In this document: one piece after another, positions 40,245 to 56,500 of the stretch
How positions within the stretch are numbered: the stretch's first letter is position 1
Layout of the letters: the number at the start of each line of letters is the position of its first letter
DNA from: Escherichia phage vB_EcoM_Lh1B
Reading direction: 5' to 3' (one strand)
DNA length: 64,000 bases
Sequence record: OK428535.1
Notes under the pieces: model-generated
Told to the model about the DNA's origin: nothing
What the model saw: only the letters and a program-made list of their open reading frames with translations
The model's database searches: none
Program-made: the position numbers and the translations under genes

Positions 40245-40256
40245 GTAGAGGAAAAT

Positions 40257-40445: not shown

Positions 40446-40455
40446 AATACGTATT

Positions 40456-40490
40456 AGGGTGTCCATATGGACACCCTACTTATTTTTTTG
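40456..40490 (+). terminator. intrinsic terminator
   Basis: AGGGTGTCC-ATAT-GGACACCCT hairpin followed by ACTTATTTTTTTG. Confidence 0.75.
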
Positions 40491-40507
40491 TTTAAGGAGC
40501 TATCAAA

Positions 40508-41846: not shown

Positions 41847-41856
41847 AAAATAAAAG

Positions 41857-41900
41857 CAAACGAGTACCCCGTAAGGGGTACTCGCGTTACTTATTTTTTT
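41857..41900. terminator. bidirectional intrinsic terminator
   Basis: CGAGTACCCC-GTAA-GGGGTACTCG hairpin with A-run upstream and T-run downstream, between convergent gene blocks. Confidence 0.75.
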
Positions 41901-41902
41901 TG

Positions 41903-42454
41903 TTACGCTTGAGTCATGTCGGAGATGTCATAAACCAGACCGTTCAACTCAGTAACGGTGATCAGTTTACTGATATCGACACCATCGCTCGGAACTTCGG
42001 TCAAATAAACTTCAACCGTACCCGTCCACGCCAGTGACTTTCCATTGAAACGCAAATTGTGTTTCGTGGAAGACGTCATTGACTCGTTTGCGTAGATCTC
42101 CGATACGTCAATCATCCAGTTATACTTAGCCTGCAATAACGGGACAAGATCAGCAGCAGTAGATGCGCTACTACCGTCCACAGACAGCACCACGTTTTCA
42201 AACAGGTGGGCTACGTCCAATCGACGGTAAGTAAGACCCATCTTACCAAACGTACCTTTCTCAACGATACCAGAAACATCGAGACTGGTGTTCAGTCTGG
42301 TGTACTGTTCTGGGTCAGGATCGGCTGCGGTGATGTGCGACGGGTTACCGAACGACAATTTATCGATGGTCACGCCCTTACCAGTCAGTCCGGGATTCTG
42401 GGACACGATAAGATCGTAAACCAACTCTTTTGCGGTCTTTCCAAATAAACTCAT
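41903..42454 (-). CDS. hypothetical protein (183 aa), possibly structural
   Basis: Last gene of the minus-strand block before bidirectional terminator. Confidence 0.65.
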   Translation of the reverse strand: MSLFGKTAKELVYDLIVSQNPGLTGKGVTIDKLSFGNPSHITAADPDPEQYTRLNTSLDVSGIVEKGTFGKMGLTYRRLDVAHLFENVVLSVDGSSASTAADLVPLLQAKYNWMIDVSEIYANESMTSSTKHNLRFNGKSLAWTGTVEVYLTEVPSDGVDISKLITVTELNGLVYDISDMTQA

Positions 42455-42476: not shown

Positions 42477-44738
42477 TTATCGCGCTTGTGGTAGGAAAAT
42501 GTTCGCGATTTGTCGTGCCGGTATGATATCTAACGCGGCGTTGACGATGCTGCCCTGTGACCAGGNACTTGCCCNNTTCTNCGCCCAGATAGACGCGTTG
42601 ATTTTAGCCTGCGCGATACCGTTGGTACGCTCGTAAAGCGTGGCAGCACCCAACACAGACATAAATTCACTGAACTTGTTATCATCATCAAACACACCAA
42701 TATCAGTTACAATCGGCATGTACATAACACGCGACAGGTCGCGAATAGTTACCTGTATATCACACGACAACGGCAGACCGTCAGCACGCCACCCTAACCC
42801 ACCTGTACCAAACTGGAGACTCAAGTTAGTTACCATGGCATTACGCATGGAATAACGACCACGAGAATAACACTCCAGATAGAACGGGTGCGTAAACGAT
42901 TGTTTACCGGTTGCTAACGGGCAAACTGCCGCTAACCAGAACGACAACGGGACAATCAGATCCTGGAACACATCTAAGTCGTTACCCGACCAACAGCGAA
43001 GAGGAATGCTTAGCGAGATATCGTCACCTGAGGTGTCTGAGGAGTCCCACACTTCCGGGAAGTCAATCACTGACGAGTTGTACAGCGACATAATCCCTGA
43101 TAAATGCAAGAAATCGAGTGCGCCTGTAAAGGCGGACTTCAACCCAGTAATGAGACCATCGACTGCGTCGAAACCAGTCTTACCACCAGAGAGGTTTACT
43201 TCCAAAGAACGTGCTTTCTGTGTGGCGGAGTTAACCGTGCCAGAGATTTCAGGTTCTTTGGTGGTGTTGGAGAACGAACGCCCTACGGTATCACGTCCAT
43301 CAACACGCCAAGTAATCCACTGCGAACCATTGCGTATCTCCGAAGCGATGTTCGAAGTTAACCCATCCATAGCGCCTTCTAAAATATCGATATAGTCTTT
43401 GAAGACGCTACCGACAGATTCTTTCTGGCCTTGGTCCATCCAGTTTTCAATCTTCCCAATGTCGAGATTATTCTCATCCATTGAGTTTGCTTCGGTCTGA
43501 CTTTTAGCAACCTGAGCCTGGTTCTTTTCAACCTGTGCCATACGCTCGGCAAGCTCTTTACGTTGCGCATCACCTTCGTTTTCGAAGTTTTCAGCTTTAC
43601 CTCCTTGTGACTGAGCATCCTGAATGCTTCCGTTCATCCCTGCTACCAGTTCGTCTTCTTTGTTATCGACGTTTTCAAAACCGGCATCGTACCCTTTACC
43701 GGCTTTGGCTACGTATTCAAGGTTACGTAAAGAAACCTCGTACTGCGCAGCTTTCTCCAAATGGGTTGTTGAGTACGTCGCTTCCAGATAGAAGTTTCGC
43801 AAACGTCGAGCCATGTCCTCTTCGTTACTCGACTCTTTACGAATTTTATCGATGGTTTTCGCCTGGTAGTTGGCTAATGTTTGGTAGCGGTTAATCATTC
43901 GATAGATATCGAACTCACCATCAGCTGTCCAGATTTCTGGCAGCATGGAGTACCACTCTTTGCGGTCGCCGTTGTACTTATTAGCAGTACCGCCTTTCTC
44001 AGACCCATCTACAGCATTAGCAAGCTGGAAAGTCCCTAACACACCCGTTGGTACCAATCGGCGATAAACTAACTGGGTGTTGACCATATTCTGCACAGCG
44101 CGCAGATACAAGTGCATTGTCGGTTTCACGTAGTAGTAGCGAGAAGTCTGCTTGTTCAGCACCATCTTCAACATACGTGGTGTAATTAGAATAACCGCAA
44201 AGGCAACCGTACCTACCGCGGCCCATATTGCTGCGGCGGCAACATACGTCCCCATCGCACGTAACATACCTGGGTAGTCACCTGTGCGCGCCAGATACGC
44301 TAGGTTGGAATCGTACATATTCGCGAAGAATGCAGCGACCCCGATATATCGAGGTTTACCGAAACGACAATGAAGATAAAAACTGTTTTGGTTAATAGCT
44401 TCGTAATAGAAAGTACCTAGACGATAGGAACCACGTTGGTCTTGACCTTTAACGTACTTTGAGTACGAGCCACGACCTGCATCAGGTTGTGCAAAAGCAC
44501 CTGTTGAACTCGGATCAGCAAACATCGTAAACTGCGGCGGCGCATTTAACGCTTGCGAACCACCCATCGTGGTATCTTCAAACGAGAGCATCGCGTTAGA
44601 GTAACGACGCAAACCCAGGAAACGCTCATCGCGTTGTGCGGTTGTACCGCCAAACAGGCCGGTTACCCANCCNNAATCTTTTAGTTGTCTTGCTTCCATG
44701 TAAAACCTCTCTGTAAGATGATTAGGGGGTGTTGCCAC
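42477..44738 (-). CDS. hypothetical virion-associated protein (753 aa)
   Basis: Long minus-strand ORF immediately downstream of the giant gene; internal hydrophobic segment GTYVAAAAIWAAVGTVAFAVILI; coiled-coil-like middle. Confidence 0.75.
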   Translation of the reverse strand: MATPPNHLTERFYMEARQLKDXXWVTGLFGGTTAQRDERFLGLRRYSNAMLSFEDTTMGGSQALNAPPQFTMFADPSSTGAFAQPDAGRGSYSKYVKGQDQRGSYRLGTFYYEAINQNSFYLHCRFGKPRYIGVAAFFANMYDSNLAYLARTGDYPGMLRAMGTYVAAAAIWAAVGTVAFAVILITPRMLKMVLNKQTSRYYYVKPTMHLYLRAVQNMVNTQLVYRRLVPTGVLGTFQLANAVDGSEKGGTANKYNGDRKEWYSMLPEIWTADGEFDIYRMINRYQTLANYQAKTIDKIRKESSNEEDMARRLRNFYLEATYSTTHLEKAAQYEVSLRNLEYVAKAGKGYDAGFENVDNKEDELVAGMNGSIQDAQSQGGKAENFENEGDAQRKELAERMAQVEKNQAQVAKSQTEANSMDENNLDIGKIENWMDQGQKESVGSVFKDYIDILEGAMDGLTSNIASEIRNGSQWITWRVDGRDTVGRSFSNTTKEPEISGTVNSATQKARSLEVNLSGGKTGFDAVDGLITGLKSAFTGALDFLHLSGIMSLYNSSVIDFPEVWDSSDTSGDDISLSIPLRCWSGNDLDVFQDLIVPLSFWLAAVCPLATGKQSFTHPFYLECYSRGRYSMRNAMVTNLSLQFGTGGLGWRADGLPLSCDIQVTIRDLSRVMYMPIVTDIGVFDDDNKFSEFMSVLGAATLYERTNGIAQAKINASIWAXXXASXWSQGSIVNAALDIIPARQIANIFLPQAR

Positions 44739-44747
44739 CCCCTACGA

Positions 44748-47700
44748 TTAGCTTGCTTTCCGACTTACGTTTAACGACGGTGTCGGTTGGGTTATTTCCT
44801 GCCTACGTGCAGCTGAGCCCGGAGGAGGCACATTTGCCGCTTGCTGGATACTACCACCCCGTGTGTCGTTTGCCGCTCTTGGATTTGATTTCAAAATATC
44901 ACGAATCTCTTTCAAGTAATCGCGAGACTGAATCAGTACCTTGAGCTGCTGAACATCTATCGGGTCACCATTCAGCGTTGGCGTCGATGCTGTAGCATCA
45001 GAAGTTGGGGCGGCAATTGGACGAGCTGCTGCGTTAACCTGCGCTTCCGCGCCTGCTTTCACTTTAGCAACATCCGTCNCAGACAATCCTTCTGCTGCAG
45101 CTTGCGACGCTACGGTTTCGGCCGTTGTTGAGGCATCGGATGTTCCGGTACCGCCTGTGGTTGGNGTAGGTGCTGCTGGTCCTACATTACCTGCGGCGGT
45201 AGCCATTGCATCTTGTGCCGCCATGGCCCCTTTCTGCGTCAATGCGTCATCACGACGATTAGCATTATCTGCTGGCAGGTTATCTGCNGGCGACAGACTC
45301 GGGTCATTAGCGGCCGGTGCACCCATTGCCGCTGCCGGGTTAGTTGGTGAATTAGGCGACAATCCTGCAACCATATCCTTCGTCTTGCTCGGAACGGCAG
45401 CGACTTCGTTGGCGGAAATTGCGCCCATGCGGCGGTTCAGTTCCTGAATAACCCCGTCTACGCTACGTATACGACCGTTGCTGTAGAAGACGTTGGCATT
45501 CCCTCTCAGTATTGCGGATGTAATCCCAGGAGCACTCGATGCCGCCATATTCGGATTACGCTTCCATGCTTCCAGGAATTTCTTACCGCCGCCTGCACCC
45601 AGGAAGTGGTACAGATAAGCCACGGCTGGNGGNGGTGCTTTACCACCCAGGTCACGTTGTGCTTTTTGGATGTTGTCACGAATGAACTGTACACCCAAAA
45701 TANCATNCNCCCNCGGGNCCNTCTGGTTAACACGCGGAANACCNAACTTCCNCGAANACCCCTTCATCATCCCGTCCCACGNGCCGTTAACAAACTGGAA
45801 CAACCCAGATGCCGAAGCATACGGGTTTTTAGCGGTGTAGTTAAATCCGGACTCCNCCTTAGCCATTGCTAACGCCACTGCAGGTGGCACGCCCATCATG
45901 TTCGCTGCATCGGTAATCAATGCTTTGATATTCGGAACGTTCAACGCACCCTTTCTACCCAACATTTCTATCGGGTATTTTTCAGCCAGTGACTTATAAT
46001 CACCGTCTTTCACTTCACTCAGGTTAATCGAAGACGAACCAGTGGTCATTGCAGCGTAGTTCCGCACACCGCCAACCGCATCGACGACTTGACCCAAGTT
46101 ACCCGGCACACCACCACTCGTACCCGATGGAATGTAGCCTGAGGCGCGAGCACCGTCAGATGACAAAGAATCTCCCGAACTGATGTTCGAGTCTTCTTCA
46201 TCTTCACCGGTAACTTCCAGAGAACTGCGGTTCTTGTTACGATCCTTCCAGCGTGCACGCTTGCCATTATTTTTAATGGCTTTAATCATGTTACGCACGG
46301 CAAGGTCAGCTTCTTTTGACAACAGCTTCAGCGTTTCCAGCTCGGCTTTGATAGACGATGGGTTCGTGTTAGCATCGCCCCCTAGTGGGTTGATGTTCAC
46401 TTCCCACACCGACTGTCTTATACCGCCTTTCAGGCTGTAGGCAGTTGACATCATCAGACTGATTTCGTACAGGTAGCCGCCGGTCAGTTTCAAGTTCAGC
46501 GGATCGGCTGTTGGCAGGTAACGCTTCACCCCAACCAAATACGTCATGAATACCGGTAAGAAGCGGTCAAAGAACCACCGTTTCAAACGATCTTCTTTCG
46601 GTGTGCCGATAGCGTCTGGAACCATCGAGGCGATGGCTTTCTTCCAGTCACCTTTATAGCTTGCGGTTTTCACGTCGATGTCTTTGATGACGTTCTTCTC
46701 GAATACCGTAATCAACGTGCGTGTGGCGTTGTCGATGGTGGTAAAACCATAAGTCTTCCAACGCACCGACTCCATCGCATTCATGTCTTTCTGGTCGAGC
46801 ACCGCGTTCCAGTCTACCTGAATCTGAACCTGCTCTGTTCCGTCTTCCCAACCTTCTACCTTCGCCAGATTTTTATTACGTTCGTTATCCAACTGTCCAA
46901 GTTTGTTGATAGCTTCATCAACACCCGCGGACTTAATCCCCTCCACGGCCGGTGCCATTCCGTACTTACGNGCTTTCTTATCGTCCATTCTGAACTTGAT
47001 TGCACNCNCGACTTCATTCTGCACTTCCATAACCTCTTCACCGCTCAAAAACTCCTTCGGTGTAAAGGTTACAACGTCCCAGGCTTTCGAGAAGAAGCCT
47101 TGGTTGACTTTGCGTGGGTCTGTTAACGAAGAGAACGCTTTTGCATCCTTAGTCATCTTCATTTTGTTGAAGAGTGTCTGCATGTCCTCTTTCGATACTT
47201 TCTTAGCATCGCCGACGTCAGCCAACTGGATACTATTCGGCATTGATTTCAGTGCCGNAATCCAGCGGAGATAAATCGGAATAAAGCGCTGAAGCATAAA
47301 CGCTTGGAAGGCCAACATCTCGCCTTTTTCCTCGACGTTAATACCGAACCCTTCAGCTAACTTCTGAACGTCTTTTCCACCTAGCCCACGGAGACTGGCT
47401 TGGCCATCTTCCGCGTAAGACACATACTCACGCAATGCGTCTTCTAAGTAACGCGCTTTCGCCCCGTCATCCGACGACCACTTATCGTAATCACGGAAAC
47501 CGTACTGAGCTAAACGCATCTTATCCAGGTACTGGGTATAGGTAGTCGTTGCGATCTTGTACNCGGCGTAACCNNCCNCGGNGNNCNCNCCACCGATAAG
47601 AATTGCCGGCCAACCCACCGCAGTCACGACGGCAGAGGCCCCGGTTCCCACNNCGGNCACCNCGGGTGCCNCCAAACGGGTTACTGCGAACTTACCAACA

Positions 47701-50700
47701 TTCCACGCAGCCTTACCTAAAAGACCTACGGGTTTTAACACACCCCATTTCGTGATAGAACCGAGTATATTACCCACAGTTCCCAAGATACTGACGATGG
47801 GGCCGATGATAGGTAAGCCTTTCACCATATCCCACAGACCGCCAGATTTCCCTTTGGAGCCCTGCNCTTTCTCTTTCTTCNCCTTNCNTTTCNCACNCCA
47901 ACNTTTGAAGAAGTTAAAGTAGTCGCGTTTTTCATCACCTTCAGGCGGCTTGTTACGTTTACCGAACTTCGCAAACATGGTACGAATAATACCATCGTCG
48001 CCACCTGCACGGGATACTGATTCGCGCATGGTGTTAAACCACGACATCTCTTGCAAGCCAATCATTCGGTCCAAGCGTTCGAATAACCTTGCACCTGCTG
48101 ACTTGGCGGCATTCTTCCCTTTGTTGATAACCCTCCCTGCTGCATCACGGGCGGTCTCAAGGTCTTCCTTCGCATCGCCGTAGACTTTACGGCCAGAAAG
48201 GCCACCTTTCGCGTTCAAATGGCTGCGATAAAACTCAGCAACATCGTCATCGCGTCCAGCCAACCGACGTTCAACTTCGTAACGTGTAGCAATGTCGTGT
48301 CGTGCTCCACGATATCCATCGAGCATATCCCCAGCCCGGCCTCGGAAACCACTGAACCAACCNCGCAGGCNGTCGCGTCCACGACCAAAGAACGCTTTTG
48401 TTCTTGACCAACGTCCACCAAAACGTTCAGACAATGACGATTTCGCACGATCATACGCCCCGCGTACTGCACGACCGATCGTACTACCGCCACCCCCGAC
48501 GCCCTTCTCCATTTCCTCTGTCCAACTTTCGTCTTCCGGATCTCCCGGTAAACGTTGGTTCAACAGTTTATAGATACGGATAAGGATGTGGTTGGTTTTC
48601 TTGCCGGTTGATGAGAAGAGACTGAAACCACCACCCCCACCATCTTTACGGCCTTTCCACCAACGCGTCAGTGGGTTGTCGGTAANCATGTCTTTCAGAC
48701 GATCGACACCACGTTTCGCAAAACCGAGCACTTTACCCGGTAAGCTCGTTACACGGTTGAACGCTTTCTGGAGACGTGTCTTTTCTTCGCCTTCCGGAAT
48801 CTCGTTCAGCCAGTCCTTAATCTTACCAACGATGCTGCCTGCTTTCGGTGACAGGAAATCCAGGAACCGCTTCGGTAGCTTAGCCACCTTATTAAAGCCT
48901 AAGCCAATCTTACTGGCCAGACCTTGGGTCAGTGCTTGGATTTTCCCGCCTTTATAGTAGCGGAGTTTACCCGCAGCGGCTAAGTCAGCGGCTGCTAATA
49001 CCAGATTACCTGCGGAGTCAACAATATCACTCCCCAGTTTGATGTCGTCCAGCGTTTTCAGCTGAACCATTTTACCATCAATGACCTGATAGTATTCTCC
49101 AGCTTCCAGACGTGCACCTTGCAGAACAACGTTACCGTGGTCATCGTAAACATCGCGGATACCCAGTAGTCCTTTACCGAAGGAACTTACCGCTTCAAAA
49201 CCACCACGGACACTACCACTGATAAGGCCACGCATCCGGGTTAAGAAACCAGGACCTTCGCCACCTCCCATGCCTGCGACTTTACCGCGTGCCCAACCAC
49301 CGAACTGGTTCAGTTTATTCCAGGCACCCTTAACACCACGTTTCGCAAAGCCGCCGATTCCTGCTGCGGTGTCGAACAANACACCGCCCCAACGACGAAT
49401 AAGCCCATCCTCACCGATGATAATACGACGGCGTCTACCGCCACCGCTACCACCACCAGGGCGAGGCGGACCCATTTCTTCATCACCAGAACCAGCACCC
49501 CCTGCTAACGAAGCCAGAAGAACCCCTTCTTCGTCCATACTTCTGACGTGTTCCAGAATTTTCTGGAGGGTGTCACTGTTGTTGTTACCACGAATCGCTT
49601 CGATGATACCGTCAAAGTTATTCCGTGGTGCTTCTTCGCCGCGGTTACGTTGACTCAACAATTCAACAAAGTTAGTCGAGGTTTTACCGTAGAGAACTGC
49701 GGCTAACTGCCGAGGCGACATTCCGCGGCCTTTACCACCGCCACGTAAANCNGGNGGTAACGACGTGTCATCGGCACCACCACTTGCCCCTTGGTTCATT
49801 CGGCGCAGATAGTCGCCTAACGCCGAACCATTTTGCAGCTTACGTTGAATCTCCTGGTCACGAGTCAATGCGCGCCCGCTGCGTGTCTTACCCATCGCCA
49901 AGTCATTAAACAAGGTATAGGGATCGGACAGGTCTTTATCCACGCCGAAGGTGTCACTCTTCGCGTCGTAGTTAAAGATACCCGCATCACGCAACGCTCG
50001 CTCGCCGTAAATATTCACCGCCTCGTCGATAATTGCCTGACGTTGGGTGATAGATGACTGCACTGTGGAGATTTTGCGAGCCAGTTCGTTACTTAATTCG
50101 TTGCTACCACCGAGTAAGCTGTCTGAATGCCCCTGTAACGCTTCCTTAATGCGTTCTGCGGCGTTTCCTGGCATATACCGATGAAGATGCATCGGGTCTT
50201 TCAGAATCGCTTCTACGTCGAATGCGCGGCCCTGCGAGGCACGTGACTCGATATAGTCGGCAAGATGCTGTCGATCCTTCTGCGAGAGCGTTTTGCCACG
50301 GTCAACAAAATCCACAGTGCTGTTAATGGAATTTTGGAGACGCAGGCGCTGCTCATCGTTTGCAACCGCTTTGCGTACACGGTTACCGACCACTTTGCGG
50401 TCTACGAAACCACGACTGGTGATGTCGTATTCCAGATCGGCATGTTCGCCATAGCCACGACGAACAGATTTGTTAATCTCTGCCAGCCAGGCAGGAATAA
50501 CTTCAACCAGGCTAAGATACGCTTTACGGTCAAACTTCGCCGAACGACTTAACGTTTCGCCATTACGCTCATCGAGGAAGGCTTTCTCACGGTTTAACGG
50601 TTGGACAATACCGAGTTCATTCAGTACCCGGAACAAATCCGCCAACGGTCCTTGTGTTTCGCCTGCGATAGCTGAGTTCGAGATAGAGGAAAGATTACCA

Positions 50701-51722
50701 AAGGTGAACGCGCCCTTCTGCAGGCGTTTCATGACCTCTGGATTTTTCTCCATCTCCTCACGAGTCCATTTCTGGAGTTTCTCGATTTGTGGGCCGAGTA
50801 GTTTCTTCGCAAGGAATCCGCTACCCCATGCAGTTGCTTTATCGCGAGCATTTGTTTTGCGACGTTCGGCAGTCAACGAAGAGCTGTCGCTCATGCCGAA
50901 ATCGTCTTCAACACCCATGCCGAGAACAGACTCTAACAAACCACGACCTTCGCCAAATATACCAGAAATTTTCTTCTTGGTATTTTCGCGAATCATGTCC
51001 ATAAACCCGTCAGCATAACGCAANGGGTTCATCCATTCCGCAGCCTGGCGTTTAACGTTTGCCCAACGGACTTCTGAGAAATCTTCCTTCGCGTAGTCTG
51101 GCAGCGCCGTGTTCTTCACGATGGCTTCTAAAGCAGGCGTGTTACGATCGAACTCCGACTGCTTCATCTTCACGATGTCTTGAATGGCGAACAGGGTACG
51201 GTATTGCAATTCGAGTTTCTTACGCTCGATGTTTAAGAATACCCCACGGCTTAACCCGGTTAGCAGGTTAATGTCTTTCGCCATCCCAATCATGGTTTGG
51301 TGCATTGCATCCGCGCGCATCTCTTTGATGCTGTCGCGGAGCTTATCCTCTACCATGCGGTCCTGCAGTTGACGTTGTTCGTCGGCGTCCTTTGGCACGC
51401 CTGAGAAAACGTCGCCCAGTTCACGATCCATCAATGCCTGATTAGGATCGTAATTTTGGTAATCCAACTGGTCAGATTTTGACCACTTGTCGATGCGCTT
51501 AGTAACTGCATCCGGCAAGTATTTCTTCATCGTCGGACCGAGTTGGCGCGCTTGCATCTTCAGCGTGCGCTCGGTCTTCTCAAGCTCCCCTTTCGTATGG
51601 GCGTAAATGTCCTTTGCTGCAGCTGCCGCTGACTGATAACCCTCGTATGCATCAGCTGCCGGCTTAGGCATCCCCTTGAGGATAACTTGGTCGCGTTTCC
51701 CTTCTGGCCAGATAGTTGACAT
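44748..51722 (-). CDS. giant virion-associated protein with C-proximal lytic transglycosylase domain (about 2320 aa from proposed start)
   Basis: Uninterrupted ORF 44748-51905; start proposed at ATG comp. 51720-51722 (AGGAAG SD-like) because the ORF otherwise overlaps the divergent RNAP gene start; GVPPAVALAMAK.ESGFNYTAKNPYASASGLFQFVNG SLT-like motif about 2040 residues in; Gly/Arg-rich low-complexity tracts. Confidence 0.8.
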   Translation of the reverse strand: MSTIWPEGKRDQVILKGMPKPAADAYEGYQSAAAAAKDIYAHTKGELEKTERTLKMQARQLGPTMKKYLPDAVTKRIDKWSKSDQLDYQNYDPNQALMDRELGDVFSGVPKDADEQRQLQDRMVEDKLRDSIKEMRADAMHQTMIGMAKDINLLTGLSRGVFLNIERKKLELQYRTLFAIQDIVKMKQSEFDRNTPALEAIVKNTALPDYAKEDFSEVRWANVKRQAAEWMNXLRYADGFMDMIRENTKKKISGIFGEGRGLLESVLGMGVEDDFGMSDSSSLTAERRKTNARDKATAWGSGFLAKKLLGPQIEKLQKWTREEMEKNPEVMKRLQKGAFTFGNLSSISNSAIAGETQGPLADLFRVLNELGIVQPLNREKAFLDERNGETLSRSAKFDRKAYLSLVEVIPAWLAEINKSVRRGYGEHADLEYDITSRGFVDRKVVGNRVRKAVANDEQRLRLQNSINSTVDFVDRGKTLSQKDRQHLADYIESRASQGRAFDVEAILKDPMHLHRYMPGNAAERIKEALQGHSDSLLGGSNELSNELARKISTVQSSITQRQAIIDEAVNIYGERALRDAGIFNYDAKSDTFGVDKDLSDPYTLFNDLAMGKTRSGRALTRDQEIQRKLQNGSALGDYLRRMNQGASGGADDTSLXXXLRGGGKGRGMSPRQLAAVLYGKTSTNFVELLSQRNRGEEAPRNNFDGIIEAIRGNNNSDTLQKILEHVRSMDEEGVLLASLAGGAGSGDEEMGPPRPGGGSGGGRRRRIIIGEDGLIRRWGGXLFDTAAGIGGFAKRGVKGAWNKLNQFGGWARGKVAGMGGGEGPGFLTRMRGLISGSVRGGFEAVSSFGKGLLGIRDVYDDHGNVVLQGARLEAGEYYQVIDGKMVQLKTLDDIKLGSDIVDSAGNLVLAAADLAAAGKLRYYKGGKIQALTQGLASKIGLGFNKVAKLPKRFLDFLSPKAGSIVGKIKDWLNEIPEGEEKTRLQKAFNRVTSLPGKVLGFAKRGVDRLKDMXTDNPLTRWWKGRKDGGGGGFSLFSSTGKKTNHILIRIYKLLNQRLPGDPEDESWTEEMEKGVGGGGSTIGRAVRGAYDRAKSSLSERFGGRWSRTKAFFGRGRDXLXGWFSGFRGRAGDMLDGYRGARHDIATRYEVERRLAGRDDDVAEFYRSHLNAKGGLSGRKVYGDAKEDLETARDAAGRVINKGKNAAKSAGARLFERLDRMIGLQEMSWFNTMRESVSRAGGDDGIIRTMFAKFGKRNKPPEGDEKRDYFNFFKXWXXKXKXKKEKXQGSKGKSGGLWDMVKGLPIIGPIVSILGTVGNILGSITKWGVLKPVGLLGKAAWNVGKFAVTRLXAPXVXXVGTGASAVVTAVGWPAILIGXXXXXXGYAXYKIATTTYTQYLDKMRLAQYGFRDYDKWSSDDGAKARYLEDALREYVSYAEDGQASLRGLGGKDVQKLAEGFGINVEEKGEMLAFQAFMLQRFIPIYLRWIXALKSMPNSIQLADVGDAKKVSKEDMQTLFNKMKMTKDAKAFSSLTDPRKVNQGFFSKAWDVVTFTPKEFLSGEEVMEVQNEVXXAIKFRMDDKKXRKYGMAPAVEGIKSAGVDEAINKLGQLDNERNKNLAKVEGWEDGTEQVQIQVDWNAVLDQKDMNAMESVRWKTYGFTTIDNATRTLITVFEKNVIKDIDVKTASYKGDWKKAIASMVPDAIGTPKEDRLKRWFFDRFLPVFMTYLVGVKRYLPTADPLNLKLTGGYLYEISLMMSTAYSLKGGIRQSVWEVNINPLGGDANTNPSSIKAELETLKLLSKEADLAVRNMIKAIKNNGKRARWKDRNKNRSSLEVTGEDEEDSNISSGDSLSSDGARASGYIPSGTSGGVPGNLGQVVDAVGGVRNYAAMTTGSSSINLSEVKDGDYKSLAEKYPIEMLGRKGALNVPNIKALITDAANMMGVPPAVALAMAKXESGFNYTAKNPYASASGLFQFVNGXWDGMMKGXSXKXGXPRVNQXXPXXXXILGVQFIRDNIQKAQRDLGGKAXXPAVAYLYHFLGAGGGKKFLEAWKRNPNMAASSAPGITSAILRGNANVFYSNGRIRSVDGVIQELNRRMGAISANEVAAVPSKTKDMVAGLSPNSPTNPAAAMGAPAANDPSLSXADNLPADNANRRDDALTQKGAMAAQDAMATAAGNVGPAAPXPTTGGTGTSDASTTAETVASQAAAEGLSXTDVAKVKAGAEAQVNAAARPIAAPTSDATASTPTLNGDPIDVQQLKVLIQSRDYLKEIRDILKSNPRAANDTRGGSIQQAANVPPPGSAARRQEITQPTPSLNVSRKAS

Positions 51723-51898
51723 CGCCGACTTCCTGGCAACATTCAGGGTACTGAGTATCGGGCTTCGTTTTTTCTCGTCTTTGGGACGGGGNGGTTCNCC
51801 NAAANCNTCCCANTCGTCGANTNTATCTAAATCNATATCATCNAAACCNTCTTTNCCTCTTTTTGCCNTAANNTTTNTTCCAATTNAGGAGNTTAAAA

Positions 51899-53512
51899 AT
51901 GACAAAGCTAAAATGGGTTNACTTTTACTTGTTAAACNNCAACAAGTCCCTGGTGTCGCATTTAAAACCAGTTACAACAACAGACACCTTTCAGGGACTG
52001 ACGAAAAACTTTCACCCTGAAGGACTGTATTCAACCGAAATTTTTGGCCTCACAGGGAGCGAAGCACGAGACTCAACGTTCTCGTACATTGATATCAAAC
52101 TGGATATCATTTCGCCGACCGTTTGTTTGGCATTGTTCCAGCTGAAACAGCTGTACGAAGAAATCTGTTCCGGGAAGCGATTCGCTATCTGGAATGAGAA
52201 AGAAAAAGATTTCGAGCCGGCTCTGCCCAGTGATAAAGGTGCAGACACCGGCTTCAACTTCTTCCTACGCTACTACGAACAACTGACACCGGGACGCAAC
52301 GAATCGATGCGTCGCGACGAGACAGTCGATTTCTTCAATAAGTTCCGTCCGGTCAGTCTCAGCCGCTATGTGCTGGTTCTGCCTGCGGGATTACGTGATT
52401 TGGTCATTCGTCAGGATGGCCGCGACCAAGAAGAAGAGATTGGCGGACTCTACCGTCGTCTGATTTCTCTGGCGCGTGCAATCCCCGACCGCAGTACGCG
52501 AACGGAACTGACTGACCCGGTTCGCTGGAAGCTCCAACAAACCTTTAATGATATCTGGATGTACTTCTTCAACATCCAGGATGGTAAAGGTGGTTTTGCA
52601 CGTCGTAAAGTGACGTCACGTAAGTTAATGAACGGTACGCGTAACGTACTGTCTTCATTCTCAACCGGTTCCAAGGTCATGGGTCGCGAAGATGCGATTC
52701 GTCCAACGGATACCCGTATCGGTTTGTACCAAACCCTGAAGGCATTACTGCCTGTGGCTCAATACCACATCCGTGAACGTTACCTCAGTAACATCCGGGC
52801 AGGGGACGGCAACTTATACGGCGTTAACACCAAAACACTCAAGCGTGAGTTCCTGGAAGTCTCCGGGCGGGTGTATGACCTTTTCACTACCGACGATGGC
52901 ATCGAAACACTCATCAACAGAATGGAAGCGCGCGAGCTTCGACATAAACCGCTGATGATTGATCCGGACCATTACGTGGCATTAATCTACCAGGACAAAC
53001 GCAGCTTCAAAATCTTTTACGATATTGAAGACCTGCCGGAAGGACGTGACCGCAAGCTTGTCCGCGGACTGAGCTTAGCAGAACTCCTCTATTTGTCAGG
53101 TTACGATATTTGGAATGACTACTTCTCGTTCATCACGCGTTATCCGGTTACGGGACGCGGTTCGACTTACTCCTCGACCATAAGATTGGAGACCACCACC
53201 TCTTCCCTCTATTTGCATGAACTGGAAGACGATTGGGNCACGTTAAAAGANAAGGGNGCAATTNGNTTCCCTGACCGTACCGTGAAAACNTTTGTGGAAT
53301 CCATGGCACCACATCCANCCCNATTAGGGGGNTTGGGNGGNGACNACGANGGNGACACCGGCNCANCAAANAGCCCGATGTCAACCGAAGCGCTCGNGGA
53401 AAATCGGAAGTGGGTCAGTTCGAAAAACTACTGGTTTGCAACAGACGGCAGTTTCAAAATCAATCCGGTTAACAACGTGATTAAAAGAACGACTGCTGCG
53501 CTGTTGAAATGA
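51899..53512 (+). CDS. RNA polymerase beta-prime-like subunit, N-terminal fragment
   Basis: FSYIDIKLDIISPTV and VLVLPAGLRDLVIRQDGRD....IGGLYRRLISL align with E. coli RpoC HIELASPTAHIW and [35 protein letters not shown]; partly resolved GGD-x-(D/E)-GD-TG at 53342-53362 compatible with the DxDGD catalytic loop. Confidence 0.75.
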   Translation: MTKLKWVXFYLLNXNKSLVSHLKPVTTTDTFQGLTKNFHPEGLYSTEIFGLTGSEARDSTFSYIDIKLDIISPTVCLALFQLKQLYEEICSGKRFAIWNEKEKDFEPALPSDKGADTGFNFFLRYYEQLTPGRNESMRRDETVDFFNKFRPVSLSRYVLVLPAGLRDLVIRQDGRDQEEEIGGLYRRLISLARAIPDRSTRTELTDPVRWKLQQTFNDIWMYFFNIQDGKGGFARRKVTSRKLMNGTRNVLSSFSTGSKVMGREDAIRPTDTRIGLYQTLKALLPVAQYHIRERYLSNIRAGDGNLYGVNTKTLKREFLEVSGRVYDLFTTDDGIETLINRMEARELRHKPLMIDPDHYVALIYQDKRSFKIFYDIEDLPEGRDRKLVRGLSLAELLYLSGYDIWNDYFSFITRYPVTGRGSTYSSTIRLETTTSSLYLHELEDDWXTLKXKXAIXFPDRTVKXFVESMAPHPXXLGXLXXDXXXDTGXXXSPMSTEALXENRKWVSSKNYWFATDGSFKINPVNNVIKRTTAALLK

Positions 53513-53530: not shown

Positions 53531-56500
53531 ATGATTTTTCTGAAACAGTTTAACCAGCGCTTTACCGTGCGCAAGACCGATGAGTTCGGTCGTCCGCGTA
53601 TTATCCCGCTGGAGAAGCTCCAGCTCCCACGTGGTTCTATCTACCACACCATCGATTTAGACCAGGTGGTTTTAGCACCACCGTTAACTACACCGTNTTT
53701 TGNCCNGGTGGAAAAACCGGCGATGATTCGCCACCACTTCCAGCTGCCTGAAGACGGCATTATTGGCCACCCGCGTAAGAAACCGGTTGTTGGCCAAGAA
53801 CGTCAAATCTTCCAGTACCATCGTAACAATCGTCGTATTCGTCGCATGATTGAAGACGGCGTGGTACGTTCCGATCCGAAAGTGCTGCTCATCGAAAACT
53901 ACACCCCGATGCTGCCGCATTATTTCTACCCTGATACTCTGATGTCCTGGTACGAACGTCTGCACAACATTCAGCTGCTGATAACTAACCAGATGAAAAC
54001 TGACTCACGTGAGTACATGCGTCAGAACTACTACATCATCGAACTGGGTAACGTACTGCCTTCTTTCGATCGTTTTAAAATGACGTATAACGATCGTGTT
54101 AAAACCAAACTGGAGCGCTTTAAAGACTTTAACCTGCTGTGGTTACTGGAGTTGTTCGGTTGGGTGTACGGCGATCAGCAAGCAACACTGTTTGACGGTA
54201 TGGACATGAACCAGCTGTCACGTGTGAACTTTATCTTCACACACAACGGTGGTTTTACATCCATGAACATGGGTGTAATTGAAAGAATGCGTAAGTCTGC
54301 CGGTGGTCGTTTGACTGACGTGCAGATGGGCAGAATGTTCTACCGTACACTGACTACTGTGATGACCACACCGCCGTCTACCGACTACGAAGATGACGAG
54401 TTCGTTACACCGGAAGGGGATGAACGCGTACATCTGGGAGAGGACGACGATGCTGTTGAAACCGTTGCCAGTAAACCGGAAGAAAGCCTCGATATCGTCG
54501 ACGATGAAGCAACACAAAGCGACAACGTTGACGATACATTGAACGATCATGAGTTCGATGAGAAAGAAGATCTGGTCATCGAAGCGCCGAAAGAAGATGT
54601 CAAACCAACCACCATCGTCGTAGAACGCACCATCCCACACGATGCTGTGATTAAACAAGAAGTTGAGCGCCTGGCNGAAGCGGGCCGCGTCACCGCCAAA
54701 GCGTATCAGTTCCTGAACGAATCTTCTAAACGTTTCGTAAACTTACCCAACCCGTACAATCCTAAAGAGACGTACGGCGAAGGTCTGACCATCGATCCGA
54801 AGAAACTCGAAGTTAAAGCCGAGCCTAAGAAGATTGAACGCTTAGTTACGGATGAAGCCTGGGCGGAAAATACCACCGACCAAATCATTCGTCAGTACAA
54901 CCAGGAAATCTTCCCGAAAGATATTCTGGGGGCAGTAGCGTCATCTCAGCGTCTCGGTTTGGCGATTCACAATCACACTGTTNAGAAAGAGATTTCCGTT
55001 ACCGGGAATATCGAACACCACACGTTGCGTATTCAGCCGATTGGCGGAGAACCAACCACGGTACGTTTCTCAATTCCTGCATTAACCGAAGACGGTACTT
55101 GGGTTGCGAATGGTGTGGAATATACAATGCGTCGTCAGCGTGTTGATCTTCCCATCCGTAAAGTGTCCCACGATACTGTAGCGTTAACCACTGCCTACGG
55201 GAAGAACTTTGTCCGTCGCAGTGATAAAGTCGTCAATGATTACGGACGTTGGCTCACTAACGCGATTATTACTCGCGCGGTCGATCCAAAGAACACCGAA
55301 ATCACTGATGCAAAACTGGCGAATGTGTTCGATCCGCTGTCTAAACTGCCGCGTCAGTACACCGAGGTGGCACGTCGTGTAGCAGCATTCAACGCAATTG
55401 GGTACCAATGGAACTTTGACATTAAACAGAAAGCGGCATTCTTTAACGAAGGGCAACTGGCAGATGCGGACCGTGTCGAGCTGGTACCTGTGGCGAAGAA
55501 ACCGCGGAGTCATGTCATCGTCGGTATGGATAAAAACTCCCAGCTTTATCGAGTGGATAAGGATAAGACCGAACCACTGGGTACACTCGCCGAGGTCTTT
55601 GGCGTGGACACCTCTAAGGCTCCACGTGAAATGACCGAACTGTCACTGATGGGCAAATCAATCTCGCTGGGCTTTGTGTTTGCGTACTATCTCGGATTAA
55701 CCGGGATGTTGAAACACTTTGGTATCAGTTACGAGGTTCTCTCTGTCGGACAACGTATCGATAAAGGTCAGTTCGACTCCATTATTCGTCTCCAGGATGC
55801 GAAAATTGCAATTGTCTGCGAGAACGATCAACAGAGGATGATTGTCAACGGCTTAGACCGTTACATTAAACACTTTACCACGTATACCGAGTCGGAAGTT
55901 GACCGGGAAGACATTTACCTGAACCTGTTACGTGATGCAGATGGGCTAACACCACGCTACATCAAAGAGCTGAAACTGATGCGGACCGCATTTGTTGACG
56001 ACATGCACGCGCGTATCCTCAGGAAAATGGGCGAGCCGGNAACCTTTATCGGCTTACTGGAGCGTTCTAACGAACTGCTGCAGACGGACCACACGTTACC
56101 GGAAATTAACGGTGACGAAATGATGTTCATCGGGAACCAACGTATTTCGTATCACATCTACACCGCGATGGTGCGGGCGATGCGTAACTACAACAACGCG
56201 CCTAACTCGAATCGTAAGTTTGAGTTGACGCAGGACATGGTCTGGGGTGCAATTAACTCCGACCCGTCTGTTCTACTGGCTCCTGGTGCAAACCCGGTAC
56301 AGAACATCAAAGAAAAAGATGTTGTTACCATGGGCGGTACAGGTGGTCGTAACCGCAAGACCATGGTCTACAGTACCCGTGAATTCCAACCGAGCGACCT
56401 GGGGATTGTCTCCGGTAACACGGTCGATAACGGCGATGTAGGTATCACCGCCTTTGCAACAAACAATCCGCGTTACGACACCGTGGACGGCACGACCTTT

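What the first reader, a model, noticed from the sequence alone, without database searches (positions are those of the whole stretch)
44748..51905. Giant (>2300 aa) protein with C-proximal lytic transglycosylase motif, divergent from the RNAP genes
A single uninterrupted minus-strand ORF spans about 7.1 kb. Roughly 2040 residues in it carries ...AMAK.ESGFNYTAKNPYASASGLFQFVNG, an SLT-type catalytic-Glu block, surrounded by Gly/Arg-rich low-complexity tracts and followed by an Ala/Thr/Pro-rich tail. Size, domain position and adjacency to virion-RNAP-like genes resemble what I recall of the phiKZ structural peptidoglycan hydrolase (an ejected or tail-associated lysin). It is a candidate cell-wall-penetrating virion protein.
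Basis: partly seen in the sequence, partly recalled or inferred. Interest (0 to 1): 0.55.

Follow-up and report, generated by a model that had tools for sequence, protein, structure and literature searches.

The report
Jumbo-phage tail tape measure with lysin
This 7.1-kb gene is the already described giant tail protein of SPN3US-like Salmonella jumbo phages (SPN3US gp239, the counterpart of phiKZ gp181), regarded in the literature as the tail tape measure and carrying a built-in cell-wall-cutting enzyme, so the finding is real but ordinary.

Summary
The ORF is real. The window is a Seoulvirus (SPN3US-like Salmonella jumbo phage), and the gene is 95.7-97.5% identical in DNA to SPN3US gp239 and its SPFM orthologues. 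The true CDS is 44748..51869 (-), 2373 aa. The 12 codons up to the TTG at 51905 are an artefact, because an N hides a TGA stop that the relatives carry.

The C-proximal block is a genuine SLT/GH23 lytic transglycosylase:
- Pfam SLT scores above its gathering cut-off.
- Sequence search of the PDB hits the solved phiKZ gp144 transglycosylase at 7e-17, with the catalytic Glu-Ser aligned and invariant in the family.
- The predicted fold matches only lytic transglycosylases.

The protein is collinear with phiKZ gp181 (E 2e-22) and lies in the same gene order (virion RNAP beta genes, divergent giant gene, gp182-like baseplate spacer). An isolated domain of gp181 is a proven muralytic enzyme. Published mass spectrometry places SPN3US gp239 in the tail and calls it the tape measure. 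phiKZ orf181 took no transposon insertions.

Across 135 divergent relatives, length (median 2306 aa, CV 8%), the N-terminal domains and a mid-protein hydrophobic segment are kept. The enzyme slot holds SLT, GH19 or M23.

Novelty: already known.

The parts
44748..51869 (-). Real CDS of the giant tail protein (2373 aa plus stop); orthologue of SPN3US gp239 and phiKZ gp181
   Evidence: DNA identity is 95.7% to SPN3US and 97.5% to SPFM19 with N counted as mismatches; 115 non-N mismatches to SPFM19 in 7158 nt.
51870..51905 (-). Artefactual 12-codon extension of the mechanical ORF (TTG start). Bases 51870-51898 are the 29-bp intergenic spacer to the divergent RNAP beta gene.
   Evidence: Codon 7 is TNA in the window and TGA in SPFM19; SPN3US also has an in-frame stop there. 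Sequence read.
49950..51782 (-). Conserved N-terminal region (aa 30-640), present in essentially all family members
   Evidence: BLASTP segments 33-267 and 438-554 against phiKZ gp181. Local HMMs for aa 30-300 and aa 430-640 hit 134 and 135 of 135 representatives.
49170..49592 (-). Gly/Arg-rich low-complexity tract (aa about 760-900; 30% Gly at 801-900), poorly conserved
   Evidence: Composition; low alignment occupancy (0.62-0.76).
47754..47828 (-). Hydrophobic segment 1 (aa 1348-1372), candidate membrane-inserting helix
   Evidence: Kyte-Doolittle 19-aa mean up to 1.79. 123 of 135 relatives have a hydrophobic segment at relative position about 0.58.
47550..47672 (-). Hydrophobic segment 2 (aa 1400-1440), Ala/Gly/Val-rich
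   Evidence: Kyte-Doolittle mean up to 1.91. Aligned to phiKZ gp181 from residue 1297 on.
47109..47540 (-). Copy 1 (aa 1444-1587) of an internally duplicated conserved module (R-x3-YG ... E ... RF-x-P)
   Evidence: hhalign of copy 1 against copy 2 gives probability 97.6%, E 4e-12. Invariant residues.
46380..46787 (-). Copy 2 (aa 1695-1830) of the duplicated module
   Evidence: This region recovers 332 cluster representatives, almost all 2100-2650 aa.
45420..45920 (-). SLT/GH23 lytic transglycosylase domain (aa about 1984-2150). The catalytic Glu2006 codon is at 45852-45854, followed by Ser2007.
   Evidence: Pfam PF01464, 23.9 bits against a cut-off of 21.3. PHROG 4067 transglycosylase, 9.5e-23. 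PDB gp144/3BKH at 7e-17 for the single sequence and 6e-65 for the family profile. AF2 plus Foldseek top hit 3BKH, 2.6e-7. E2006 and S2007 are invariant in 8 family members.
44970..45422 (-). Ala/Ser/Thr/Pro-rich tail (aa about 2150-2300), low confidence in the structure model (likely disordered)
   Evidence: Composition. pLDDT below 50 in the AF2 model of the 95%-identical P0001.
44760..44774 (-). Extreme C-terminal motif LNVSR (aa 2366-2370), conserved across the family; inferred docking peptide
   Evidence: The regex [VIL][SDNT][VMLI][SANGK][KR] matches in the last 16 aa of 73 of 135 representatives, against 0.5% of random 16-aa windows.
44723..44744 (-). GC-rich hairpin (UAGGGGGUG-GCAA-CACCCCCUA) just after the stop codon, with no U-run
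   Evidence: -19.4 kcal/mol, z = -2.4 against shuffles. Sequence. Function not tested.
42477..44699 (-). Downstream gene (740 aa from the ATG at 44699); homologue of phiKZ gp182, the hexameric baseplate 'spacer' ring, and of the essential SPN3US tail protein gp238
   Evidence: BLASTP against phiKZ gp182, E 1e-40. SPN3US annotation. PMC13250141 (gp182 spacer). PMC5105663 (gp238 essential, tail protein).
51899..53512 (+). Divergent upstream gene; orthologue of the SPN3US (gp240), SPFM19 and phiKZ (gp180) genes annotated RNA polymerase beta subunit
   Evidence: Annotation of the near-identical SPN3US and SPFM19 loci and phiKZ gene order. No Pfam hit.
53531..57736 (+). Second RNA polymerase beta-subunit gene (SPN3US gp241, phiKZ gp178)
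   Evidence: gp241 is listed among the amber-mutant genes and described as a head protein (PMC5105663).

Best explanation
The gene encodes the tail tape measure protein of an SPN3US-like (Seoulvirus) jumbo myophage, with a lytic transglycosylase built into its C-proximal part.

Shown here:
- It is the orthologue of SPN3US gp239 and a full-length homologue of phiKZ gp181.
- It contains an SLT/GH23 domain with the catalytic Glu-Ser pair intact.
- It has two strongly hydrophobic segments in mid-protein.
- It sits next to the gene for the baseplate spacer ring.

Shown by others for orthologues:
- It is a tail component of the virion.
- An isolated domain of gp181 degrades peptidoglycan with high specific activity.
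- The phiKZ gene tolerates no transposon insertions.

Inferred mechanism:
1. A few copies lie inside the tail tube. The C-terminal peptide is anchored at the hub/spacer end. The roughly 1350 residues upstream of the first hydrophobic segment act as the ruler that sets the roughly 200-nm tail length.
2. On sheath contraction and loss of the spike, the C-terminal part leaves the tube first and enters the periplasm. There the transglycosylase cuts glycan strands locally.
3. The hydrophobic segments insert into the inner membrane to open or line the conduit through which the DNA and the packaged virion RNA polymerase enter the cell.
For: Identity:
- Megablast gives 100% coverage at 95.7-97.5% identity to SPN3US and the SPFM phages.
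- PHROG 3201 scores 2348 bits.
- BLASTP to phiKZ gp181 is collinear in four segments spanning aa 33-2149, E 2e-22.
- The order RNAP beta, RNAP beta, divergent giant gene, gp182-like gene recurs in SPN3US, phiKZ, 201phi2-1, pVa-21, RP12, Phobos and Machina.

Enzyme:
- Pfam SLT is above its gathering score.
- PDB phmmer hits gp144/3BKH at 7e-17, with 'AKAESGFNY' aligned to 'ASIESAFDY'. The family profile scores 6e-65 and also hits MltC and MltE.
- The AF2 domain has block-mean pLDDT of about 65-87. Foldseek returns 3BKH at 2.6e-7, followed by MltE, Slt, MltF, MltC and phi6 P5.
- E2006/S2007 are invariant in the family.
- The same slot (relative position 0.84-0.90) holds SLT in 114 of 135 relatives, a GH19 motif in 13 and an M23 motif in 7. 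Pfam confirmed GH19 in 3 and M23 in 1 of the 4 checked. What is conserved is therefore a wall-degrading function, not one particular fold.

Tape-measure role:
- The literature calls gp239 the 259-kDa tail tape measure. It was not detected in tailless 64_112(am27) particles and was strongly depleted in 255(am107) particles (PMC5105663, PMC5694885, PMC10052503).
- The phiKZ cryo-EM atlas builds spike, tip, hub, spacer, tube and fibres from other proteins and never mentions gp181 (PMC13250141). This fits a symmetry-mismatched protein in the tube lumen.
- Length is tightly kept in a very divergent family: 135 representatives, median 2306 aa, 5-95% range 2150-2582, CV 8%.
- Hydrophobic segments occur in 123 of 135, first at median residue 1344. 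Multiplied by 1.5 A per helical residue this is about 2016 A, against a 2000 A phiKZ tail (PMC13250141).
- The extreme C-terminal motif is conserved.
- The downstream neighbour is the gp182 spacer-ring homologue.
Against: - No tape-measure profile matches: Pfam, NCBIfam and PDB show only the SLT domain.
- There is no upstream chaperone gene pair with a programmed frameshift, which is usual for long-tailed phages. The upstream gene is the divergent RNAP gene.
- If fully helical, 2373 residues would span about 3560 A, roughly 1.8 times the tail. At most part of the protein can be the ruler.
- The only structure model of the N-terminal 1200 residues is unreliable (mean pLDDT 39.7), so its helical character is not established.
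- No length-mutant experiment linking this protein to tail length was found in the papers I searched.
- The SPN3US tail length was not retrieved, and the 1.5 A-per-residue match uses the phiKZ tail.
- The enzyme activity, ejection order and membrane insertion are all inferred for this phage.
Confidence: 0.8

Rival explanations
1. It is the needle or cell-puncturing spike at the tip of the baseplate, analogous to T4 gp5.
For: A review table lists gp181 as a 'needle-like cell-puncturing device' (PMC5380687). The 201phi2-1 gp276 annotation reads 'putative cell-puncturing device'. Like T4 gp5, it carries a muralytic domain.
Against: The phiKZ structural atlas assigns the spike to gp164, the tip to gp163.1, the hub to gp101 and the spacer to gp182, and does not mention gp181 (PMC13250141). 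No OB-fold, beta-helix or any spike-related family is detected by Pfam, NCBIfam or PDB searches. At 2373 aa with hydrophobic segments and long low-complexity tracts, it is unlike any known spike.
Confidence: 0.04
2. It is a tail fibre or receptor-binding protein, as most database records label it.
For: The product name 'tail fiber protein' appears in RefSeq and GenBank records and in PHROG 3201.
Against: The label is inherited annotation with no test behind it. In phiKZ the fibres are built from gp131 and gp133-135 (PMC13250141). SPN3US fibre/baseplate candidates are gp168-171 (PMC5105663, PMC10052503). The N-terminal domains and the region 430-640 are conserved across hosts from Pseudomonas to Vibrio, Ralstonia, Erwinia and Salmonella. 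That is the opposite of the rapid C-terminal turnover seen in receptor-binding proteins. An enzyme acting on peptidoglycan would be useless outside the outer membrane.
Confidence: 0.02
3. It is a head-packaged ejection protein, like T7 gp16, which also has an N-terminal lytic transglycosylase. On this reading it is co-packaged with the virion RNA polymerase whose genes lie next to it, and it builds a trans-envelope channel after ejection from the capsid.
For: It is adjacent to virion RNAP and prohead-protease genes. Its SLT domain is similar to that of a podophage 'internal virion protein' (Rhizobium phage RHEph21, 32% identity). It has hydrophobic segments. SPN3US is known to package more than 40 MDa of ejection proteins (PMC7411985 abstract).
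Against: gp239 was not detected in tailless, DNA-filled SPN3US 64_112(am27) heads and was strongly depleted in 255(am107) particles, so it is classed as a tail protein (PMC5105663, PMC10052503). The downstream partner gp238/gp182 is a baseplate ring protein (PMC13250141).
Confidence: 0.05
4. The ORF is an assembly or masking artefact: several genes fused because the N positions hide stops or frameshifts.
For: There are 68 N in the gene. One N does hide a real stop, but it lies upstream of the true start.
Against: The alignment to the N-free SPFM19 gene is gapless, with no stop between the ATG and the terminal stop. The alignment to SPN3US has one 3-nt indel. Intact ORFs of 2237-2500 aa exist in seven other phages and in 135 cluster representatives. 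A 259-kDa gp239 is detected in the virion by mass spectrometry (PMC5694885).
Confidence: 0.01

Closest known systems
Salmonella phage SPN3US gp239 (YP_009153533.1; RefSeq 'tail fiber protein'; called tail tape measure protein by Thomas and co-workers)
   Same: Orthologue. DNA identity is 95.7%. Apart from the 45 masked residues, the proteins differ by 24 substitutions and one extra Gly. Neighbours and orientation are the same.
   Different: This is a different isolate, closer to the SPFM phages (115 non-N mismatches to SPFM19 in 7158 nt). The window copy is peppered with N. There is no functional difference to be expected.
Pseudomonas phage phiKZ gp181 (NP_803747.1), 'structural peptidoglycan hydrolase' / tail-associated endolysin, 2237 aa
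   Same: Collinear homology over the whole length, E 2e-22. The synteny is identical. The transglycosylase domain sits at the same relative position. The hydrophobic region and the duplicated module are aligned. The muralytic activity of an isolated gp181 domain has been measured (Briers 2008, as cited in PMC5380687 and PMC8700119). The gene took no transposon insertions (PMC12676376).
   Different: Identity is only about 19-23%. The window protein is 136 residues longer and has a different Ala-rich tail. The hosts differ (Pseudomonas versus Salmonella).
phiKZ gp144 endolysin / neck-associated lytic transglycosylase (PDB 3BKH, 9XPS)
   Same: It is the best solved-structure match to the catalytic domain (7e-17; Foldseek 2.6e-7, 27% identity). 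The catalytic Glu and the following motifs are aligned.
   Different: gp144 is a 260-aa protein with an N-terminal peptidoglycan-binding domain (my own knowledge, not tested here). Here the same catalytic domain is embedded at residues about 1984-2150 of a 2373-aa tail protein.
Phage T5 Pb2 and other tape measure proteins that carry muralytic domains (e.g. phiIPLA35 TMP; Pa193-type gp41 TMP, PDB 9B45)
   Same: Functional analogy only: a tape measure that also carries hydrophobic (fusogenic) segments and a wall-degrading module near the C-terminus. The review table in PMC5380687 lists Pb2 as a tail-tip muralytic protein of 124 kDa. Its tape-measure and fusogenic roles, and this domain order, are from my own knowledge of the T5 literature. 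The PDB tape measure 9B45_a gives a weak hit to the SLT region (E 0.21).
   Different: There is no detectable sequence homology outside the lytic domain. Pb2 is from a siphophage and, from my own knowledge, has a metallopeptidase motif rather than SLT. The protein here is 2-3 times longer and belongs to a contractile tail.
T4 gp5 cell-puncturing lysozyme
   Same: Both deliver a glycan-cleaving enzyme to the periplasm as part of a contractile tail.
   Different: gp5 is the trimeric spike with an OB-fold and beta-helix. No such elements are detected here, and the homologous phage phiKZ has a separate spike, gp164 (PMC13250141).

Membership tests
SLT / GH23 lytic transglycosylase domain (Pfam PF01464) | Profile match above the curated gathering score | tested here: met
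   PF01464 scores 23.9 bits against a cut-off of 21.3, E 3.3e-5, on the N-masked window protein. The family profile against the PDB gives 6e-65 to gp144 and 8e-8 to MltC.
SLT / GH23 lytic transglycosylase domain (Pfam PF01464) | Catalytic Glu followed by Ser (E-S), and the downstream G-L-x-Q motif | tested here: met
   E2006-S2007 and G2022/Q2025 are invariant in 8 family members. The Glu-Ser pair aligns with the 'IES' of the gp144 motif ASIESAFDY; that this Glu is the catalytic residue of gp144 is from my own knowledge.
SLT / GH23 lytic transglycosylase domain (Pfam PF01464) | Lysozyme-like alpha-helical fold | tested here: met
   The AF2 model of the 95%-identical P0001 has domain block-mean pLDDT of about 65-87. 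In Foldseek against the PDB, the top hit is 3BKH at 2.6e-7, and the listed hits are lytic transglycosylases or related lysozyme-like enzymes (goose-type lysozyme, a GH23 chitinase).
SLT / GH23 lytic transglycosylase domain (Pfam PF01464) | Non-hydrolytic cleavage of MurNAc-GlcNAc bonds giving 1,6-anhydroMurNAc | not testable with these tools
   Muralytic activity is reported only for the phiKZ gp181 domain (reviews PMC5380687, PMC8700119). The product chemistry was not checked here.
phiKZ gp181 / SPN3US gp239 giant tail protein family (PHROG 3201) | Full-length collinear homology | tested here: met
   PHROG 3201 scores 2348 bits. BLASTP to gp181 gives four collinear segments. The N-terminal, 430-640 and mid-region HMMs are found in 134, 135 and 122 of 135 representatives.
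phiKZ gp181 / SPN3US gp239 giant tail protein family (PHROG 3201) | Conserved gene order: divergent from the two RNAP beta genes and followed by the gp182-like gene | tested here: met
phiKZ gp181 / SPN3US gp239 giant tail protein family (PHROG 3201) | Physical presence in the virion tail | not testable with these tools
   Shown by mass spectrometry for SPN3US gp239 (PMC5105663, PMC10052503) and noted for 201phi2-1 gp276 in its record. Not shown for this isolate.
Tail tape measure protein (functional class) | Protein length determines tail length | not testable with these tools
   No length-mutant data were found in the papers searched. Indirect support only: length CV of 8% across 135 divergent relatives, and median residue 1344 for the first hydrophobic segment, times 1.5 A, is about 2016 A against a 2000 A phiKZ tail (PMC13250141).
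Tail tape measure protein (functional class) | Match to a known tape-measure sequence family | tested here: not met
   No tape-measure family appears in Pfam, NCBIfam or PDB profile searches. Tape measure proteins are notoriously diverse, so this is weak negative evidence.
Tail tape measure protein (functional class) | Long, largely alpha-helical N-terminal part | tested here: inconclusive
   A single-sequence AF2 model of aa 25-1224 is mostly long helices, but mean pLDDT is 39.7.
Tail tape measure protein (functional class) | Hydrophobic or transmembrane segments | tested here: met
   aa 1348-1372 and 1400-1440; present in 123 of 135 relatives.
Tail tape measure protein (functional class) | Preceded by tail-assembly-chaperone genes with a programmed frameshift | tested here: not met
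   The upstream gene is the divergently transcribed RNAP beta gene, 29 bp away. Chaperones, if any, are encoded elsewhere.
Tail tape measure protein (functional class) | Gene adjacent to baseplate hub or tube-initiator genes | tested here: met
   The downstream gene is the homologue of phiKZ gp182, the spacer ring between the tube initiator and the hub (PMC13250141).
Central spike / cell-puncturing device (T4 gp5-like) | OB-fold plus beta-helical spike; position at the baseplate tip | tested here: not met
   No such domains were detected. In phiKZ the spike is gp164/gp163.1 (PMC13250141).

The most novel reading that the evidence does not exclude
The most novel reading not excluded: the protein is more than a ruler with a lysin attached. 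After ejection, its two hydrophobic segments and the duplicated about 135-aa module (aa 1444-1587 and 1695-1830; no Pfam, NCBIfam or PDB sequence match) would assemble the trans-envelope conduit. They might also nucleate the inner-membrane-derived early phage infection (EPI) vesicle that phiKZ-like phages use to shelter the incoming genome. The interchangeable SLT/GH19/M23 cassette would clear the wall in front of it.
Probability: 0.12. Interest if true: 0.6.

Novelty: already known. Interest (0 to 1): 0.15.

Why it matters
This is a correct recognition of a known protein, so it adds little on its own.

Practical value:
- It corrects the widespread database label 'tail fiber protein' for this family.
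- It fixes the start codon, which an N-masked stop obscures in this window.

Comparative points seen here that may be useful to people working on jumbo-phage entry:
- The wall-degrading cassette in the same slot is exchanged between SLT, GH19 and M23 across the family.
- The family keeps a narrow length range, a mid-protein hydrophobic segment at about residue 1344, an internally duplicated module and a conserved C-terminal peptide. All of these give direct handles for mutagenesis to test the ruler and channel models.

Tried and rejected
- **Homologue searches.** The search for homologous proteins with the C-terminal 550 aa, with aa 1437-1860 and with a family alignment of the module region (A3, aa 1440-1860) returned only fragments and a few distant proteins.
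- **N-terminal structure.** Single-sequence AF2 of aa 25-1224 gave mean pLDDT 39.7 and is not usable beyond a hint of helicity. I did not run a fold search on it.
- **Family searches of the whole protein.** NCBIfam gave only a sub-threshold hit. PDB phmmer and the family profile found nothing outside the SLT domain.
- **Primary source.** The Briers 2008 paper on gp181 is not held. Its results are cited through reviews.
- **SPFM10 as nearest relative.** I first took LR535908 (SPFM10, 99% identity in 40 pieces) to be the closest record. It turned out to be a record scrambled in 60-nt blocks, so I dropped it as a reference.
- **N as polymorphism.** I considered that the N clusters might mark hypervariable or polymorphic sites, such as a diversity-generating target. 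I rejected this because only 2 of 68 masked sites vary between SPFM19 and SPN3US, and the N are spread over all codon positions.
- **Neighbouring genes.** The 183-aa ORF at 41903-42454 shows no similarity to phiKZ gp184. It is DUF7941.
- **Not followed.** No tRNA genes are in the window. The antisense ORFs inside the gene (123-182 aa) were not followed; nothing supports them.

Full report
**What is in the sequence.**
The ORF listing gives a single minus-strand ORF at 44748..51905, 2385 codons, starting at TTG. The window carries 315 N, of which 68 lie in this gene.

I compared the gene with the N-free orthologues from SPFM19 and SPN3US. Codon 7 of the mechanical ORF reads 'TNA' in the window; it is TGA in SPFM19, and SPN3US also has an in-frame stop at that position. 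The annotated ATG of both relatives corresponds to the masked 'ANG' at 51867-51869. The real CDS is therefore 44748..51869, 2373 aa.

The alignment to SPFM19 is gapless, and the alignment to SPN3US has one 3-nt indel. No stop lies between the ATG and the terminal stop in the relatives, so the N do not hide a split gene. Only 2 of the 68 masked sites vary between SPFM19 and SPN3US, and the N fall on all three codon positions. They are masks or low-quality calls, not polymorphisms.

**Whose gene it is.**
Megablast against phage records gives 100% coverage at 95.7-97.5% identity to Salmonella phage SPN3US and its SPFM, SPLA, SEGD1, JN03 and EC001 relatives (genus Seoulvirus). The SPN3US counterpart is YP_009153533.1, labelled 'tail fiber protein' in RefSeq. 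This is gp239 in the numbering of the SPN3US papers. PHROG 3201 matches with 2348 bits.

The gene order matches SPN3US: prohead protease, two structural genes, two RNA polymerase beta-subunit genes on one strand, then the giant gene divergently transcribed, followed by a 740-aa and a 183-aa gene. Only 29 bp separate the two divergent start codons.

**The transglycosylase domain.**
- Pfam SLT (PF01464) matches residues 1996-2084 of the mechanical ORF at 23.9 bits. This is above the 21.3-bit gathering score despite about 17 masked residues in the domain. PHROG 4067 'transglycosylase' gives 9.5e-23.
- With the masked residues filled in from SPFM19, phmmer against PDB sequences finds the phiKZ gp144 lytic transglycosylase (3BKH, 9XPS) at 7e-17. 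AKAESGFNY aligns to ASIESAFDY, so the Glu-Ser pair is conserved. Weaker hits are phi6 P5 and Slt70.
- A profile of eight family members raises the gp144 hit to 6e-65 and adds MltC and MltE. In that alignment E2006, S2007, G2022, Q2025, Y2085 and H2088 are invariant.
- I predicted the structure of P0001, a 95%-identical metagenomic copy of the C-terminal 553 residues. The domain has block-mean pLDDT of about 65-87, and the flanks are below 50. Foldseek against the PDB returns 3BKH at 2.6e-7, then MltE, Slt, MltF, MltC, phi6 P5 and goose-type lysozyme; all listed hits are lysozyme-like enzymes.

**Relation to phiKZ gp181.**
BLASTP of the window protein against phiKZ gp181 (2237 aa) gives four collinear segments:

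| Window protein | phiKZ gp181 |
|---|---|
| 33-267 | 42-297 |
| 438-554 | 460-579 |
| 897-958 | 1049-1106 |
| 1383-2149 | 1297-2048 |

The best E-value is 2e-22. The phiKZ locus has the same layout: protease gp175, gp176, gp177, RNAP gp178, gp179, RNAP gp180, then divergent gp181 and gp182. The window's downstream 740-aa protein matches gp182 at 1e-40. The same layout recurs in 201phi2-1, Vibrio phage pVa-21, Ralstonia phage RP12, and Erwinia phages Phobos and Machina, with giant proteins of 2329-2500 aa. tblastn finds the family in 213 phage records, almost all phiKZ-like jumbo phages.

**What the literature says.**
- SPN3US gp239 is the largest virion protein (259 kDa) and is called the tail tape measure protein. 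It was not detected in tailless, DNA-filled particles of the 64_112(am27) mutant. It was strongly depleted in 255(am107) tailless particles (PMC5105663, PMC5694885, PMC10052503).
- phiKZ gp181 contains a peptidoglycan hydrolase domain with very high specific activity: 60,000 U/mg, or 12 times hen egg-white lysozyme (Briers 2008, cited in PMC5380687 and PMC8700119).
[quoted passage not shown] It found no insertions in its 6714 bp, nor in orf182 (PMC12676376).
- The 2026 phiKZ structural atlas assigns the spike to gp164, the tip to gp163.1, the hub to gp101, the spacer ring to gp182 and the tube initiator to gp88. It builds the fibres from gp131 and gp133-135. gp181 is not mentioned (PMC13250141).
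- That atlas gives a 2000 A tail, 43 tube rings and a lumen of about 68 A.
- SPN3US gp238, the gp182 homologue, is an essential tail protein (PMC5105663).

**Architecture and comparative evidence.**
Reading N to C, the protein has:
- a conserved N-terminal region, aa 30-640;
- Gly/Arg-rich, poorly conserved tracts (30% Gly at aa 801-900);
- two strongly hydrophobic segments, aa 1348-1372 and 1400-1440;
- a conserved region, aa 1440-1860;
- the SLT domain, aa about 1984-2150;
- an Ala/Ser/Thr/Pro-rich tail, low confidence in the model and likely disordered;
- a short conserved C-terminal peptide.

The 1440-1860 region contains an internal duplication. aa 1444-1587 and aa 1695-1830 align profile-to-profile at 97.6% probability, E 4e-12, sharing an R-x3-Y-G ... 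E ... R-F-x-P signature.

I searched this region against 1.84 billion cluster representatives and found 332 relatives at E<=1e-3. Of the best 149, 135 are 1900 aa or longer, with median length 2306 aa, 5-95% range 2150-2582 and CV 8%. Local HMMs show:
- the N-terminal region in 134 of 135;
- region 430-640 in 135 of 135;
- a hydrophobic segment in 123 of 135, first at median residue 1344;
- the SLT domain in 114 of 135, at relative position 0.875.

Of the 21 relatives without SLT, 13 carry a GH19 motif and 7 an M23 peptidase motif in the same slot (relative position 0.84-0.90). Pfam confirmed GH19 in three and M23 in one of the four proteins checked. So a wall-degrading cassette is conserved in this position, while its fold is interchangeable.

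A hydrophobic-polar-hydrophobic-small-basic motif (LNVSR in the window) lies in the last 16 residues of 73 of 135 relatives. The background rate is 0.5%.

**Most likely mechanism.**
Taken together, this is the tail tape measure with an embedded virion-associated lysin. I infer, and have not shown, the following.
- The protein lies in the tube lumen with its C-terminal peptide docked near the gp182-like spacer and hub.
- The roughly 1350 residues before the first hydrophobic segment serve as the ruler. 1344 residues times 1.5 A is about 2016 A, close to the 2000 A phiKZ tail.
- After contraction and spike release the C-terminal half exits first. The SLT domain cuts glycan strands, and the hydrophobic segments insert into the inner membrane to open the route for the DNA and the packaged RNA polymerase.

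The closest mechanistic precedent is T5 Pb2, a tape measure with fusogenic and muralytic parts. That description of Pb2, beyond the review-table entry in PMC5380687, is from my own knowledge.

Weak points:
- no tape-measure sequence family matches;
- no frameshifted chaperone genes lie upstream;
- the full protein would be about 1.8 times too long if entirely helical;
- the N-terminal model is unreliable;
- I found no length-mutant experiment in the papers I searched.

**Rivals.**
- Spike or needle: contradicted by the phiKZ atlas and by the absence of any spike domains.
- Tail fibre: an inherited label with nothing behind it. The conservation of the N-terminal regions across hosts argues against a receptor-binding role.
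- Head-packaged ejection protein of the T7 gp16 type: attractive because of the neighbouring virion RNAP genes, but contradicted by the absence or strong depletion of gp239 in tailless heads.
- Fused-gene artefact: excluded by the N-free orthologues.

**Verdict.**
The object is already known: an orthologue of SPN3US gp239 and phiKZ gp181. Interest is low. The small comparative points (cassette swapping, the duplicated module, the C-terminal peptide and the position of the hydrophobic segment) are by-products. They could guide experiments on how jumbo-phage tails are measured and how they cross the envelope.

Noticed in passing
L002 (LR535908.1 SPFM10, 29123-42083); also proteins P0006, P0007, P0014, P0015, P0025: The GenBank record of SPFM10 is scrambled here. 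Successive 60-nt blocks are each intact but run in reverse order relative to the window and SPN3US. Because 60 is a multiple of 3, the frame survives, giving a bogus 2328-aa ORF. Odd 'hypothetical proteins' of SPFM6, SPFM9 and SPFM12 in NR hit the real protein in many short stretches (P0014: 13; the unnamed P0025: 21), which suggests those records are scrambled too. These records should not be used as references.
   Followed up: partly
whole window; clusters e.g. 7411-7571, 14154-14253, 18922-18998, 20506-20655, 39168-39211, 45703-45782, 51792-51939, 53238-53397: The 315 N are single bases grouped in about 24 clusters of up to about 160 nt, plus 33 singletons. Where SPFM19 can be used as a guide (98 sites), the hidden base on the + strand is G 36, T 32, A 18, C 12, with CGC and GTG the commonest contexts. 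They are not at sites that vary between relatives. One N hides a stop codon and another hides the start codon of the giant gene. The cause (low-quality consensus or deliberate masking) is unknown.
   Followed up: partly
window 46380-46787 and 47109-47540 (-): Two homologous copies of an about 135-aa module (R-x3-YG ... E ... RF-x-P) lie between the hydrophobic segments and the SLT domain. They are conserved in all eight aligned family members, and the region is recovered in hundreds of giant relatives. No Pfam, NCBIfam or PDB sequence match; function unknown.
   Followed up: partly
proteins P0024, P0049, P0061, P0079, P0085, P0097 and others: In 20 of 135 relatives of the giant protein, the SLT cassette is replaced at the same relative position by a GH19 (13) or M23 (7) peptidoglycan-degrading motif. 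One further relative (P0112) shows none of the three.
   Followed up: yes
window 44760-44774 (-): The extreme C-terminal peptide LNVSR belongs to a motif found in the last 16 residues of 73 of 135 family representatives (background 0.5%). It is a candidate docking peptide for the baseplate hub or spacer.
   Followed up: partly
window 44723-44744 (-): A 9-bp GC-rich hairpin (-19.4 kcal/mol, z = -2.4) lies directly after the stop codon of the giant gene and 24 nt before the ATG of the next gene. It has no U-run. It could be a transcript-stabilising or attenuating element.
   Followed up: partly
window 51870-51898: Only 29 bp separate the divergent start codons of the giant tail gene and the RNA polymerase beta gene. 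The promoter of each gene must therefore lie inside or beyond the other's coding sequence. The spacing is similarly short in the relatives (25-117 bp in the loci fetched).
   Followed up: no
window 41903-42454 (-) and 42477-44738 (-): The 183-aa ORF is DUF7941 (2.3e-26); its SPN3US orthologue is a virion structural protein, and it shows no similarity to phiKZ gp184. The 753-aa mechanical ORF (GTG at 44738) should start at the ATG at 44699 (740 aa), as annotated in SPN3US. It is the homologue of the phiKZ gp182 baseplate spacer ring.
   Followed up: partly
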